Positions 61,377 to 64,000 of a stretch of DNA of 64,000 bases are shown here, piece by piece. Source of the DNA: a virus. Where the stretch lies: the IMG/VR virus record IMGVR_UViG_3300027747_001027, positions 3,806 through 67,805 of that record; one strand, written 5' to 3'. Each line of letters starts with the position of its first letter. Position 1 is the stretch's first letter. The position numbers were made by a program, and so were the translations under genes. Below the pieces are notes generated by a model. That model ran no database searches. It saw only the letters and a program-made list of their open reading frames with translations, and had not been told where the DNA came from.

Positions 61377-62447
61377 CTAAAATTCTATTGGACTATTATT
61401 ATTTGATTCGCATGGAGTGTTGTTATTAGATTCGCGCATATTGTTGTATTCCACCCACCATCTGACATCCATTGAGGGTAGGTATTCACACCATTCATCC
61501 GGTCTATTCTCTGTAACCCAAGTTTTGAATGATTGTTTGTCTCCACGTTCTTCACAGACATCGTACCATTGCCTCTTTCTTTGCGCGAGGTTGGCGTTAA
61601 ACTGCGTTTTATAGGCGGTCTGCTGTGATGGTATTGATTTAGTAGTTAGATCATCCTCCCAGCGTCTTCCGTTGATCCATGTGGCGGGATGTGGAATAAA
61701 CTGAGGATCTGTCCAGAGCTTCATTTGTTTCTGAAGTGATGGCATGACTTCTGAGAGAACACACTTTTGTTTCTTCCATGCTTTCTCTGAGTTTGCTTTA
61801 GAAACCTTGCGAGGGTAGGTGGAGTAGAAAGTTTCAAAGTCTGAATCTGAATTTCCACTATACGACTTTTCCGTGGGGTGGACTTGTTCGCTGCTGTTGC
61901 CTGCATCTTCAGAATTGTTTTTAGAACATTCACTACTCTCTGCATGAGTCTCTGTATGATTCTTTGTTATATTAGAAACAATAGACACGCGTGCGGATCG
62001 TCCATTTTTTGCCACATGGTCTGGCAAATCTTGGAGCATGGCATCTGGCAAATCTTGGAGCATGCCCCCCCATGTGGAAGAATCTTCCAGATGGGTAAAT
62101 TTGTCACTTGAGAGAACACTTTGAGCTATCTGACTAACAGTATAATACTTCATAGCCTTGCCTTCCTTGATGTCCAATTGCGATGATTTTACAAGCCCCA
62201 TTGATTCCAGCGCACGTAATACATCAGCTATAGTTCTTTCGCTCCAGAATGGAAAAAACTCTTCACGCCACCCCTTGTAGCTATTGTATATCCACCTTTC
62301 ATCATCCAATAATCTTCCGCATCTTTTGTTTCCGCAAAGGTAATGTAACGTCTGGAGCGCGATAGCTTCGTTCAGTCCAATTATTTTGGCTAGGCTTGGC
62401 TGAAACACCATTGGCGTTTCATCAATTAATAAATTTGATTTACTCAT
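61377..62447 (-). CDS. replication initiator protein
   Basis: LAKIIGLNEAI.LQ wHTH; FETFYSTYPRK...FIPHPATWINGRRWED. Confidence 0.85.
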   Translation of the reverse strand: MSKSNLLIDETPMVFQPSLAKIIGLNEAIALQTLHYLCGNKRCGRLLDDERWIYNSYKGWREEFFPFWSERTIADVLRALESMGLVKSSQLDIKEGKAMKYYTVSQIAQSVLSSDKFTHLEDSSTWGGMLQDLPDAMLQDLPDHVAKNGRSARVSIVSNITKNHTETHAESSECSKNNSEDAGNSSEQVHPTEKSYSGNSDSDFETFYSTYPRKVSKANSEKAWKKQKCVLSEVMPSLQKQMKLWTDPQFIPHPATWINGRRWEDDLTTKSIPSQQTAYKTQFNANLAQRKRQWYDVCEERGDKQSFKTWVTENRPDEWCEYLPSMDVRWWVEYNNMRESNNNTPCESNNNSPIEF

Positions 62448-62463
62448 AATATGAGGGGCCGCC

Positions 62464-62635
62464 GCCTCTCCCCGCAGAAAGACCGATAGAATGTCGGGTG
62501 AAGAATTACGGAGAGAGGCAAGCGATATGTTTATGTTTTAGTTCTGATTTAATCTTTCTTACACGTCTGTTCTTCACGCAGACGGCTGTATCTCTACAGC
62601 GGATTGAACACTACACTGCCTGAGTGCAGAGTCAA
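62464..62635 (-). promoter_or_regulatory. promoter plus two hairpins with complementary loops upstream of the initiator
   Basis: TTGACT-N16-TAGTGT; loops GTGAAGAA and TTCTTCAC. Confidence 0.65.
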
Positions 62636-63143
62636 CTATTGTTTAACAATATTTCAATCTTTGGAACAATCTTCCCGCACTTCTTGCACACGGCATTGTT
62701 AGTTCCGAATAGAAACTGGCACTTGTGCGTTCCCCCAATCTTAGCGGTAAAGCCAACCCTTCCTACGCCCCTAAGACTGCCAAGTGATCTGGCTCCTATT
62801 GCTCCTGATCCAATGTTAAAGGATCGATGTGTATTGCTTGTACTCATAGTGTGTATTTGAGAGTTCCCGATTTTATGTGATTACGGGAATGGATATCTGT
62901 TGACCAGAGATTGCTTGCCAAGGCAACACCCCCCGCCACAATACCACGTTATTGCTCTCAAAATTAGTTAAAGCTCGTATCCTCCGTCCTCACGCAGCAG
63001 TGCGTAGGCTTCCATTAACTTCTTAGTAGCTTGATCTACCCAGTCCATGCAAGCCGTGCGATCCGGCTTCTTGTAGTCGGTGATTGCTAAAATAATGTCG
63101 GTCTTGGCTGACTGAAGTGCAAGCCATACTTTTTGTTCGTTGT

Positions 63144-64000
63144 TCATTTTAGTTTCTCCAATAGGGTTAGAAAAGCTCTGGTTGCTGTTGCGGGGACGAC
63201 TCCATTGCCGAGCAGTCGGAGTTCATCTGTTCTGTTTCCAATTGAGGTAGCTTCCATATAGCACCCCCTCTCCCATACCGCTTGGTCAAGAGAGGATCGC
63301 CATACTTTTTCCATCTCTGGTAATGCTTCAGACAAAGCCCATGACCTTTCGCTGGCTTCTCGCACACCTTGCACGATGCTCTTTTTTTCCACGGCATCTT
63401 GCCCTCTTTCCAATGCAATTTCGTATGACAACTGGCACATAGCGTAACCAAGTTCTCTTTGGAATTGTTCAGTGGGTTTCTGTCCTTGTGATGAATCCCC
63501 AAAAGTTTCGTAGACCCACATTCCGCGCAATCCCCAGCCTTTAACTTCGTGGCTCGTTTGTATGCACCAGACAAAGTAACAGATTCTTTGAGTAAATGAG
63601 TCCAACTGCATTCCCGACTGCAATATTTTCTCCGCAAGAAAACATTGTAATCCTCTATTCGTCCATTGAATCTCTTGCGCGATAGCTTCTTTCCACACGC
63701 TAAACAGAACTTCTCTGGCTCTAATTTTCTTGGATATATTCTCATGGGCATACACATTATGCCCATAGGGATTCAATGTCAAGGTTTGACCCAAAAAACT
63801 GGAATATTCATTAGAGTGCAAACCCACCTGGCATTCAATTTCGCCGAACTCGGAGGCATTGAACCTTTCACTTTCTCGTTTTCGTGTAGCACTTGGCTCT
63901 GAATCGGCTTGTGTAGGTTCACTCCCTTCTCCGTCTGTTGGTATTCTGCTCTTTTCGTCCATTGCTCCGTGTTCTCCGGTGGCTGGAAACAAAAGCTGTT
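63144..64000 (-). CDS. C5 cytosine DNA methyltransferase alpha chain, C-terminal part (begins outside window)
   Basis: Motif X: RTDELRLLGNGVVP. Confidence 0.75.
   Translation of the reverse strand, partial: QLLFPATGEHGAMDEKSRIPTDGEGSEPTQADSEPSATRKRESERFNASEFGEIECQVGLHSNEYSSFLGQTLTLNPYGHNVYAHENISKKIRAREVLFSVWKEAIAQEIQWTNRGLQCFLAEKILQSGMQLDSFTQRICYFVWCIQTSHEVKGWGLRGMWVYETFGDSSQGQKPTEQFQRELGYAMCQLSYEIALERGQDAVEKKSIVQGVREASERSWALSEALPEMEKVWRSSLDQAVWERGCYMEATSIGNRTDELRLLGNGVVPATATRAFLTLLEKLK
63167..63751 (-). CDS. HNH endonuclease nested in an alternative frame
   Basis: CLACGK...KYCSREC; CAECG...IHHKDRNPLNNSKENLVTLCASCHTKLH; GLCLKHYQRW. Confidence 0.85.
   Translation of the reverse strand: MPMRIYPRKLEPEKFCLACGKKLSRKRFNGRIEDYNVFLRRKYCSRECSWTHLLKESVTLSGAYKRATKLKAGDCAECGSTKLLGIHHKDRNPLNNSKENLVTLCASCHTKLHWKEGKMPWKKRASCKVCEKPAKGHGLCLKHYQRWKKYGDPLLTKRYGRGGAIWKLPQLETEQMNSDCSAMESSPQQQPELF
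63779..63991 (-). CDS. methyltransferase beta chain (motif IX) in an alternative frame, partial
   Basis: Hand-translated ...GVNLHKPIQSQV...KLNARWVCTLMNIPVFWVKP*. Confidence 0.65.
   Translation of the reverse strand, partial: CFQPPENTEQWTKRAEYQQTEKGVNLHKPIQSQVLHENEKVKGSMPPSSAKLNARWVCTLMNIPVFWVKP

What the first reader, a model, noticed from the sequence alone, without database searches (positions are those of the whole stretch)
63144..64000. Two-frame C5 methyltransferase invaded by an HNH gene that keeps the alpha frame open
Seen: one frame ends in motif X (LGNGVVP). The +1 frame carries a motif IX-like KLNARWVCTLMNIPVFW and stops at 63779. That same frame then restarts as a full zinc-finger HNH ORF, preceded by TTGACA-N17-TAATGT (63782-63754). 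The alpha frame has no stop across the ~580-bp HNH. Known: M.EcoHK31I encodes motif IX on a beta chain in an alternative frame inside alpha. Inference: an intron-less homing endonuclease avoids killing its host gene by overprinting rather than splicing.
Basis: partly seen in the sequence, partly recalled or inferred. Interest (0 to 1): 0.78.

Follow-up and report, generated by a model that had tools for sequence, protein, structure and literature searches.

The report
Hidden HNH gene inside two-frame methylase
A freshwater phage's DNA cytosine methylase gene is read in two overlapping frames, and one allele also carries a selfish HNH nuclease gene placed so that the main methylase frame can still be read straight through it; this is a clear new example of a trick that was published for other phages in 2025.

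Summary

- **What is there (minus strand).** The alpha frame (63144-63998) ends in motif X. The +1 beta frame carries motif IX and stops at 63779. An intact zinc-finger HNH ORF (63167-63766) follows in the beta frame.
- **Alpha stays open.** Alpha has 0 stops across the HNH, against about 10.5 expected (0 of 3000 shuffles).
- **HNH-free allele.** The other end of the same virus record holds a 96-97% identical allele without the HNH (alpha 463 aa, beta 458 aa).
- **Both alleles coexist.** Both occur in two coded sequencing runs.
- **Relatives.** The host frame is open through the HNH in all 7 closest relatives examined and in 44 of 80 profile-found loci. The other 36 loci have 4-177 stops there.
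- **No splicing signs.** No intron or intein signature was found.
- **Precedents.** The "ShiLan domain" paper (PMC11855218, 2025) describes out-of-frame HNH genes in phage methylases with a stop-free host frame. M.EcoHK31I is the two-frame precedent.
- **Earlier scan notes.** This scan had already found the same combination on other genomes.

It is a new variant of a known kind, and is useful because both alleles occur in one sample.

The parts
63144..63998 (-). Alpha frame: the last 284 codons plus the stop of the catalytic chain of the C5 methyltransferase. It reads without a stop through the whole HNH cassette.
   Evidence: ORF open at the window end. (0 stops against 10.5 expected). (alignment with five other HNH-positive alpha chains; the motif X block is invariant).
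63779..64000 (-). Beta frame (+1 relative to alpha): the C-terminal 73 codons of the recognition chain, ending at TGA 63779-63781. A second in-frame TGA follows one codon later.
   Evidence: The full beta of the HNH-free allele is L003:231-1607. PHROG 1008 'DNA methyltransferase' scores E 1.4e-13 for that beta.
63791..63841 (-). Motif IX-like segment of beta, KLNARWVCTLMNIPVFW. This is the cassette's own recoded version of the host's KLNARWVEMLMNLPLGW.
   Evidence: There are 13 mismatches in 63800-63830, with synonymous changes in the ARWV codons of the beta frame. The same ...VCTLMN[IV]PVFWVKP* end is seen in L004, L005, L006 and L048.
63167..63766 (-). HNH homing-endonuclease ORF in the beta frame. 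The longest form is 199 codons; the probable start is ATG 63745 (MRIYPRK) or 63751. Its last ~25 codons run over the host's motif X region.
   Evidence: The 18 invariant Cys/His/Asn columns of 20 homologues are all present. ATG-.GA is conserved in 4 of 4 alleles, and L007 has GGAGG 8 nt upstream. In L048, stops upstream leave only MPMR as a start.
63425..63493 (-). HNH catalytic core, HHKDRNPLNNSKENLVTLCASCH.
63237..63830 (.). The segment that differs from the HNH-free allele (the cassette). About 594 nt here stand in place of about 111 nt there.
   Evidence: alignment A1. (mismatch map). (run X1: a contig joins 63236 to 63831 with 111 other letters, depth 8.4, beside a 693-nt contig identical to 63168-63860, depth 5.9).
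63198..63236 (-). 3' flank with raised divergence: 5 mismatches in 39 nt, against 4 in the next 248 nt. By my reading of alignment A1, most of these are synonymous in the alpha frame (NRTDELRLLG). It looks like a co-conversion tract.
63192..63215 (-). Motif X (LLGNGVVP) of alpha.
   Evidence: G443-P448 are invariant in 23 alpha chains. It contacts beta motif IX in the complex model.
63754..63782 (-). Not supported as such.
   Evidence: Present. Not listed by the consensus scan. TTGACA is invariant in 4 of 4 alleles, but it also encodes beta's Pro-stop and alpha's TLT.

Best explanation
The region is the 3' end of a phage C5 cytosine methyltransferase gene that is read in two overlapping frames.

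**The two chains.**
- Alpha carries motifs I-VIII, a conserved WPSRPG..Q..WEPPRVV element and motif X.
- Beta, in the +1 frame and starting a few bases upstream of alpha, carries the W-P-T-P type recognition modules and motif IX.
- Alpha and beta most likely assemble into one enzyme, as in M.EcoHK31I.

**The cassette.** In the window's allele a mobile cassette has replaced the stretch between motif IX and motif X. It brings four things:
- its own recoded end of motif IX, plus a stop for beta;
- an intact zinc-finger HNH endonuclease gene in the beta frame;
- its own version of the residues before motif X;
- a stop-free reading in the alpha frame.

Alpha is therefore translated through the nuclease gene as an insert of roughly 160 extra residues, and still ends in motif X. 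No splicing is needed.

**How it spreads and is expressed.** The nuclease presumably cuts HNH-free alleles near the IX/X junction and is copied in by repair; the recoded flanks protect the invaded allele. The HNH is probably translated by internal initiation at the conserved ATG (63745/63751), 9-11 codons after beta's stop, possibly helped by ribosomes terminating on beta.

**Shown here:**
- the anatomy;
- the replacement, and the coexistence of both alleles;
- non-random openness of alpha here and in relatives;
- purifying selection on the HNH frame.

**Inferred:**
- translation of all three products;
- activity of the methylase with the insert;
- cleavage and homing.
For: **Two frames.**
- In the HNH-free allele, alpha (463 aa) and beta (458 aa) are both open over about 1.39 kb, while the third frame has 19 stops.
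- Alpha has 0 stops over beta's recognition part, against 8.25 expected (0 of 3000 shuffles).
- 31 of 33 related viral loci have no beta-frame stop until the last 45 codons or fewer of alpha, while the third frame has 7-52 stops.
- Beta matches PHROG 1008 'DNA methyltransferase'.
- The complex model of alpha with beta 170-425 scores 0.86 against a best control of 0.23. That mark was reached by 58 of 80 solved complexes and 2 of 110 mismatched pairs. The runs agree in at least 37% of contacts, and the partner's pLDDT is at least 47.
- In that model the interface is beta 394-425 (motif IX) against alpha motif X, motif I and 253-273. This pass may owe much to likeness with solved one-chain methylases.

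**Cassette and alleles.**
- The alignment of the two alleles is A1.
- Both branches are present in run X1 (depths 5.9 and 8.4) and in run X3 (4.4 and 3.8).
- A cassette with 46-47 other letters sits in other contigs in X2 and X4; in X4 the flanks are unlike.

**Alpha kept open.**
- There are 0 host-frame stops in the window and in 6 of the 7 closest relatives, with 0 of 2000 shuffles reaching this in each. L047 has 1 stop (4 of 2000).
- The other frame has 3-12 stops, as expected.
- 44 of 80 profile-found HNH loci have 0 host-frame stops and a host ORF of 219-957 aa through the HNH. The other 36 have 4-177 stops.
- 52 cluster representatives out of 1.84 billion proteins contain the alpha-frame peptide. 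Of 10 long ones scanned, 8 are PF00145 methylases.

**HNH alive.**
- All invariant Cys/His/Asn residues are present.
- Changes that are synonymous for HNH and non-synonymous for alpha are enriched about 2-3 fold over doubly non-synonymous ones in 4 of 4 pairs.

**No splicing signs.**

**Published precedent for the principle.** PMC11855218.
Against: - No RNA or protein data exist. No RNA holder was listed, so non-splicing and translation of alpha, beta and HNH are inferred.
- The upstream part of this very allele lies beyond the record's end. It is inferred from shared flanking contigs and from relatives.
- The alpha-frame insert folds poorly in silico: mean pLDDT is 45.8, with only residues 85-155 of the fragment at about 70-83.
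- Selection on the insert's amino-acid sequence is weak and inconsistent. The ratio of alpha-synonymous to doubly non-synonymous changes, relative to opportunity, is about 1.7, 1.4, 1.1 and 0.95 in four pairs.
- The invaded beta loses the last ~10 residues of the predicted interface. It also has Phe where 23 of 23 HNH-free betas have Gly411.
- No Shine-Dalgarno sequence or scan-supported promoter precedes the HNH in this allele.
- The HNH-free allele is somewhat deeper than the invaded one in run X1 (8.4 against 5.9). X1 is probably the source sample.
Confidence: 0.75

Rival explanations
1. The invaded allele is a methylase on its way out. On this reading the stop-free alpha reading is a property the cassette inherited from earlier hosts. 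Alpha with the insert, or the shortened beta, no longer works in this phage, which tolerates the loss because the methylase is dispensable.
For: - The insert is modelled with low confidence.
- Constraint on its residues is weak and inconsistent.
- Beta is shortened and has Gly411 replaced.
- Both alleles persist side by side.
- PMC11855218 notes that close relatives of ShiLan lack the methylase altogether.
Against: - The host frame is open in every HNH-positive methylase examined, at 34-75% HNH identity and 35-61% GC. This needs continued selection after insertion.
- The cassette's ...VCTLMN.PVFWVKP end and its motif X block stay conserved across alleles.
- Alpha and beta upstream are intact in the full-length HNH-positive loci.
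Confidence: 0.12
2. The insert is removed after all, either as an unrecognised intron at the RNA level or as an atypical intein at the protein level. The open alpha frame would then be needed only for an intein-like route, or would be incidental.
For: - HNH genes commonly ride in group I introns and inteins (general knowledge).
- No RNA data exclude splicing.
Against: - A permissive Rfam scan of 62000-64000 found nothing up to E 10.
- The alpha fragment has no Hint or intein domain in Pfam up to E 1.
- An intron would not require an open host frame, yet that frame is open in 44 of 80 loci against about 10 stops expected.
- The authors of PMC11855218 likewise found no intron or intein features in their cases.
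Confidence: 0.05
3. There are not two chains. On this reading the methylase is one polypeptide made by two programmed frameshifts, alpha to beta after motif VIII and back to alpha after motif IX. The HNH cassette would then simply sit at the second shift site.
For: - The motif order VIII, recognition modules, IX, X equals that of one-chain enzymes such as L045 and L008.
- In L032, L034 and L035 motifs IX and X are in one frame and alpha ends early.
Against: - Frameshifting would not require beta to be open from alpha's start, or alpha to be open across the recognition part. Yet 31 of 33 loci keep both open.
- Alpha carries an invariant alpha-frame element (WPSRPG...EPPRVV) in the middle of the beta-coding part.
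- Motif VIII of alpha and the first W-P module of beta share the same nucleotides (my reading).
- The start codons of the two frames lie 5-8 nt apart.
- With the HNH present, a return shift would have to skip about 590 nt.
Confidence: 0.08

Closest known systems
ShiLan domain and Pacc40 insertion: hidden out-of-frame HNH endonucleases in actinobacteriophage DNA methylase genes (Arsenault, Gosselin and Gogarten 2025, PMC11855218; I read the abstract, Results and Discussion)
   Same: - An HNH gene of about 195 codons, with zinc fingers on both sides of the HNH core, lies out of frame inside a phage methylase gene.
- The host frame has no stop across it.
- There are no intron or intein features.
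- The distribution among close relatives is patchy.
- How the nuclease is translated is left open.
   Different: - The host here is a two-frame (alpha/beta) C5 methylase of an uncultured freshwater phage. The nuclease therefore lies in the frame of a second host gene, just after that gene's stop.
- tblastn with this HNH and with its relative L008 found no mycobacteriophage match covering more than 20% of the query. It is therefore probably a different HNH lineage.
[quoted passage not shown] I could not check whether their numbering starts on a codon boundary.
- Their tables, GitHub files and supplements were not seen. I cannot say whether their survey already includes this clade or two-frame hosts.
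M.EcoHK31I, the alpha/beta C5 methyltransferase of E. coli HK31 (as described in PMC2836561; passages read)
   Same: - Two polypeptides come from one stretch of DNA in two frames.
[quoted passage not shown]
   Different: - In EcoHK31I, beta is small, lies entirely inside alpha, and alpha keeps the TRD.
- Here beta is as long as alpha and starts 8 nt upstream of alpha's ATG.
- Beta carries the repeated W-P-T-P recognition-like modules.
- No homing nuclease is reported for EcoHK31I in the passages read.
Intron-borne and free-standing HNH homing endonucleases of phages (I-HmuI type and intron-less homing in T-even phages; recalled, not checked here)
   Same: - An HNH nuclease is tied to one site in a conserved gene.
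- The flanks look co-converted.
- Presence or absence varies between close genomes.
   Different: - There is no intron.
- The gene does not sit between genes.
- It is overprinted on a host reading frame that is kept open.
Inteins with a homing endonuclease domain
   Same: The host ORF is continuous through the mobile element.
   Different: - There is no Hint or splicing domain in the host-frame reading.
- The nuclease is in another frame.
- The insert presumably stays in the mature protein.

Membership tests
Hidden out-of-frame HNH insertion in a phage methylase (ShiLan-domain kind, PMC11855218) | The HNH ORF lies inside the methylase gene in another frame. | tested here: met
   HNH lies at 63167-63766, in the +1 frame relative to alpha.
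Hidden out-of-frame HNH insertion in a phage methylase (ShiLan-domain kind, PMC11855218) | The host frame has no stop across the insertion. | tested here: met
   0 stops against 10.5 expected, with 0 of 3000 shuffles reaching 0. The same holds in 6 of the 7 closest relatives, with 1 stop in L047, and in 44 of 80 profile-found loci.
Hidden out-of-frame HNH insertion in a phage methylase (ShiLan-domain kind, PMC11855218) | No recognisable self-splicing intron or intein. | tested here: met
   Rfam found no match up to E 10 in 62000-64000. Pfam found no Hint or intein hit in the alpha fragment up to E 1. This is by computation only; there are no RNA data.
Hidden out-of-frame HNH insertion in a phage methylase (ShiLan-domain kind, PMC11855218) | Patchy presence among near-identical host genes. 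| tested here: met
   An HNH-free allele, 96-97% identical in the flanks, lies in the same record. Both forms occur in runs X1 and X3.
Hidden out-of-frame HNH insertion in a phage methylase (ShiLan-domain kind, PMC11855218) | Sequence relationship to the ShiLan or Pacc40 nuclease itself. | tested here: not met
   tblastn against 50,697 GenBank phage records found 5 records for this HNH and 14 for L008's. The only mycobacteriophage match (phage Jung, two records of one phage) covered 20% of the query. This instance is the same kind, but shows no relationship to that lineage.
EcoHK31I-type two-polypeptide C5 methyltransferase | Alpha carries motifs I-VIII and X. | tested here: met
   Pfam PF00145 scores E 1.9e-27 on residues 11-187. 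Invariant columns cover motif I to motif VIII and the motif X block in 23 chains.
EcoHK31I-type two-polypeptide C5 methyltransferase | Beta is encoded in another frame of the same DNA and supplies motif IX. | tested here: met
   Beta is L003:231-1607. L397, N398, W401, L405, G411 and W412 are invariant. It docks on motifs X and I in the model, scoring 0.86 against a control of 0.23. The motif names are my own assignment by likeness to one-frame relatives.
EcoHK31I-type two-polypeptide C5 methyltransferase | Alpha retains the target-recognition domain, and beta is small and lies wholly inside alpha. | tested here: not met
   Beta is 458 aa and starts 8 nt upstream of alpha. The repeated W-P modules are in beta.
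EcoHK31I-type two-polypeptide C5 methyltransferase | Both polypeptides are made, and both are needed for activity. | not testable with these tools
   This needs expression and methylation assays.
Homing endonuclease (functional sense) | Cuts the empty allele and is copied in by repair. | not testable with these tools
   The evidence is indirect only: the catalytic residues are intact, the HNH frame is under purifying selection, and the flanks are recoded with a divergence gradient.

The most novel reading that the evidence does not exclude
One HNH clade has made stop-free overprinting its general way of living inside genes, as a third route beside introns and inteins.

- The nuclease frame and a 'transparent' host frame travel together in a fixed phase: the host frame lies 2 nt downstream of the HNH frame.
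- In this phase the cassette enters C5 methylases, both one-frame and two-frame, and also DNA polymerase A genes.
- It even enters the interior of terminase inteins, so that the intein's nuclease is encoded out of frame.
- In two-frame methylases the nuclease lands in the beta frame right after beta's stop. Ribosomes finishing beta could then restart on it, tying nuclease synthesis to methylase synthesis.
Probability: 0.4. Interest if true: 0.65.

Novelty: new variant of a known kind. Interest (0 to 1): 0.45.

Why it matters
This locus shows three protein-coding readings in two frames of one 0.6-kb stretch.

The invaded and empty alleles occur side by side in the same environmental samples. 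The insertion site, the replaced segment and the co-converted flanks can therefore be read directly.

It extends a phenomenon published in 2025 for actinophage methylases to an unrelated freshwater phage, to a different HNH lineage and to a host gene that is itself dual-coded.

It also suggests an answer to that paper's open question of how the hidden nuclease gets translated.

For annotation it matters in practice. Gene callers record one long 'methyltransferase' and miss both beta and the nuclease. Database methylase sequences therefore contain a stretch that is the off-frame reading of an HNH gene.

Tried and rejected
**Negative or inconclusive tests**
- **Group I/II intron.** The Rfam permissive scan found nothing.
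- **Intein.** No Hint domain was found in the alpha fragment.
- **Chance.** Rejected by the shuffles.
- **Promoter.** TTGACA-N17-TAATGT was not listed by the scan. An alternative -10, CATAAT, gives a 15-nt spacer by my own reading, so I do not claim a promoter.
- **Stop-codon read-through making a beta-HNH fusion.** Rejected, because the window has two in-frame stops and L048 has three between beta and the HNH.
- **Fold of the alpha-frame insert.** The model is mostly low-confidence and shows nothing firm.
- **Solved structures.** Only weak HNH-core matches appeared (IscB, E 1.4e-4).
- **Expression.** No RNA holder was listed, so nothing can be said about expression or splicing.
- **Free-standing close homologues as a control.** None was found among the closest relatives. 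The 36 of 80 loci with host-frame stops serve as the control, but they are more distant.

**Literature**
- Five of my searches bear on the literature.
- Searches gave no paper on full-length two-frame phage C5 methylases.
- The listing for PMC9957025 was seen only as title and abstract start.
- Supplements and the GitHub files of PMC11855218 were not seen.
Full report
**What is in the window.** All features lie on the minus strand of the last 857 bases.
- The alpha frame is open from the window end to 63144 and ends in the motif X block NRTDELRLLGNGVVP....
- The +1 frame, beta, reads ...KLNARWVCTLMNIPVFWVKP and stops at 63779-63781.
- The beta frame then reopens as a 199-codon ORF, 63167-63766. 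It hits Pfam HNH (E 1.4e-4, just above the curated cut-off) and PHROG 1271 'HNH endonuclease' (E 1.2e-16).
- That ORF keeps all 18 columns that are invariant among 20 homologues. These form an N-terminal CxxC...CxxxC, the CxxC-HH-N-CxxCH-H core and a C-terminal CxxC...C pattern.
- The alpha frame has no stop across this ORF. Shuffling synonymous codons of the HNH ORF gives 10.5 stops on average and never fewer than 3 in 3000 trials. The third frame has the expected 10.

**The window ends where the record ends, and the other end holds the empty allele.**
- The window is bases 3806-67805 of a 67,805-base virus record.
- The first 581 bases of that record match the window's last kilobase at 96-97% identity, but without the HNH.
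- There the whole gene can be read. Alpha is 463 aa, with Pfam C5 DNA_methylase on residues 11-187 and motif X at the end. Beta is 458 aa, in the +1 frame, and its ATG lies 8 nt upstream of alpha's.
- Beta's ATG overlaps the stop of an upstream HNH_3/HTH gene.
- Both frames are open over about 1.39 kb, while the third frame has 19 stops.

**Mapping the event.**
- Aligning the two alleles shows about 594 nt (63237-63830) in place of about 111 nt.
- On the 5' side, 13 of 31 positions differ (63800-63830). The beta residues A-R-W-V are nevertheless kept through synonymous changes.
- On the 3' side, 5 of 39 positions differ (63198-63236). By my reading of the alignment these are mostly synonymous in the alpha frame.
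- Further out the alleles differ at only 1.6-1.8% of positions.
- This is what a cassette brought in from a diverged donor with short co-converted flanks would look like.

**Both alleles coexist in nature.** All four runs laid were contigs.
- The best-holding run, X1, is probably the source sample and so is not independent. It has one 693-nt contig identical to 63168-63860 (depth 5.9). It has another that joins 63236 to 63831 with 111 other letters (depth 8.4). Both sit between shared flanks.
- Run X3, from another study code but the same year and habitat, also has both branches (4.4 and 3.8). Its loose end reads the empty allele's sequence.
- Runs X2 and X4 hold the cassette with 46-47 other letters in other contigs. 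In X4 the flanks are unlike and the depth is 355.
- No RNA run was listed.

**The two-frame gene is a family trait.**
- A search with alpha found 33 viral loci at 38-100% identity.
- In 31 of the 33, the beta frame has no stop until the last 45 codons or fewer of alpha, while the third frame has 7-52 stops.
- The two exceptions are L040, an HNH-positive allele, and L045, a distant ordinary one-frame enzyme.
- In L032, L034 and L035, alpha stops after WPSRPGQPQHGWEPPRVC and the beta frame carries motifs IX and X together.
- Within alpha, WPSRP...Q...EPPRVV is invariant in 23 chains although it lies in the beta-coding part. Within beta, the motif IX residues are invariant.
- Beta belongs to a PHROG annotated as DNA methyltransferase.
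- The complex model puts beta's motif IX against alpha's motif X and motif I. The score is 0.86 against a best control of 0.23. That mark was reached by 58 of 80 solved complexes and 2 of 110 mismatched pairs. The runs agree in at least 37% of contacts, and the partner's pLDDT is at least 47.
- Because one-chain methylases are solved, this pass shows likeness to them. It is not proof that the two chains bind.
- The layout resembles M.EcoHK31I as described in PMC2836561. Here, however, beta is full-length and holds the recognition-like modules.

**The host frame is kept open wherever this HNH sits.**
- Relatives of the HNH at 73-75% identity (L004, L005, L006, L048) and 63% identity (L007) are in the same two-frame family. 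They share the beta end ...VCTLMN.PVFWVKP* (L007: VCTLMGLPVMWAEP*) and have alpha open throughout.
- Relatives at 34-46% identity sit in ordinary one-frame C5 methylases. These are a high-GC viral contig (L008), Staphylococcus phage CUB-EPI_14 gp45, annotated simply as DNA-cytosine methyltransferase (L046), and Komagataeibacter phage phiKX1 (L047). In all of them the methylase frame runs through the HNH.
- In the window and in 6 of these 7 relatives, the frame 2 nt downstream of the HNH frame has 0 stops, and 0 of 2000 shuffles reach this. L047 has 1 stop. The other frame has 3-12 stops.
- A profile search kept 80 loci. In 44 of them that frame has 0 stops and a host ORF of 219-957 aa passes through the HNH. 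The other 36 have 4-177 stops and serve as a natural control.
- The alpha-frame peptide itself finds 52 cluster representatives among 1.84 billion proteins. Of 10 long ones scanned, 8 are PF00145 methylases.

**Which frame is selected.**
- Among the close alleles, changes that are silent for HNH but change alpha are about 2-3 times enriched over changes that alter both, in 4 of 4 pairs. The nuclease is therefore under purifying selection.
- For alpha the same ratio is 1.7, 1.4, 1.1 and 0.95. The amino-acid sequence of the insert is at most weakly constrained.
- Two other measures point the same way. Identity in the alpha frame (0.70) exceeds that of the control frame (0.57), and the codon-position pattern is unusual.
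- At long range only the HNH sequence is conserved, and the host frame is merely open.
- The fold of the insert is uncertain. Mean pLDDT is 45.8, with three helices at about 70-83.

**Translation of the nuclease.**
- An ATG followed by .GA (M-R) is conserved in 4 of 4 aligned alleles.
- L007 has GGAGG 8 nt upstream of it.
- L048 has stops that exclude the upstream ATGs.
- The likely start here is therefore 63745 or 63751, 9-11 codons after beta's stop.
- Internal initiation, perhaps by ribosomes that have just finished beta, is my inference.

**Comparison with what is known.**
- PMC11855218 describes the 'ShiLan domain' of actinophage methylases as an out-of-frame HNH of 195 aa with flanking zinc fingers. 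I read its abstract, Results and Discussion.
- In that case the host frame has no stops, no intron or intein features are found, and the translation route is unknown. A second case is described in phage Pacc40.
- This nuclease shows no detectable relationship to mycobacteriophage sequences by tblastn. The host is also different in kind, being dual-coded.
- Earlier notes of this scan report the same combination on other genomes, and one of them gave me the lead to the paper.
- My two searches for a paper on full-length two-frame phage methylases found none.

**Verdict.** This is a real, well-supported instance of a recently described phenomenon. It adds a two-frame host and a natural pair of alleles. 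It is a new variant of a known kind, of moderate interest.

Noticed in passing
L085:1583-2053 and L102:2444-2845 (hosts L085:1-2790 and L102:577-3447): Relatives of this HNH lie out of frame inside DNA polymerase A genes (Pfam DNA_pol_A plus 3'-5' exonuclease). The polymerase frame is open through them.
   Followed up: partly
L087:1697-2746, L108:2267-3271, L110:990-1919, L117:1086-1964, L127:581-1633: Large zinc-finger HNH ORFs of 290-350 aa lie out of frame inside the intein of large-terminase genes. The host frame has Intein_splicing/Hint and terminase domains and no stop. This would make them inteins whose nuclease is encoded in another frame.
   Followed up: partly
L025:2411-4885 and L017:2411-4705 (close relatives; the L025 contig is 67,811 b): Alpha is 825 and 765 aa and beta 766 and 706 aa, all open. 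In L025, the one whose sequence I printed, beta contains an in-frame HNH_3-like block (..NHIDGNKLNN..NLEYVT..). That is a different nuclease, fused into beta while alpha stays open.
   Followed up: no
L003:1604-2026 (record bases 1604-2026, outside the window): A second, unrelated HNH_3 plus HTH endonuclease gene sits directly upstream of the methylase. Its stop overlaps beta's ATG (ATGA). The same neighbour is seen in L013-L015, L017, L018, L025 and L027.
   Followed up: no
L007:3635-3721 (the same as L040:4060-4146): A second copy of the motif X segment (LRLLGNGVVPATAERA) lies out of frame, about 25 codons downstream of the cassette's own motif X. It looks like the leftover of the host's original copy.
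   Followed up: no
L032, L034, L035 (for example L034:1127-3032): In this variant of the family, alpha ends right after WPSRPGQPQHGWEPPRVC (282-aa open stretch). The beta frame carries the recognition modules, motif IX and motif X in one chain of 630 aa.
   Followed up: no
window 62632-62857: In run X3, one contig skips 224 nt here and has 21 other letters instead. That removes most of the 71-codon ORF at 62632-62847, so this is another presence/absence difference in the population.
   Followed up: no
record ends: window 62950-64000 against record bases 1-620: The record's two ends overlap but carry different alleles. The 'linear' record is therefore probably a complete circular or terminally redundant genome that the assembler could not close because of the HNH bubble.
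   Followed up: partly
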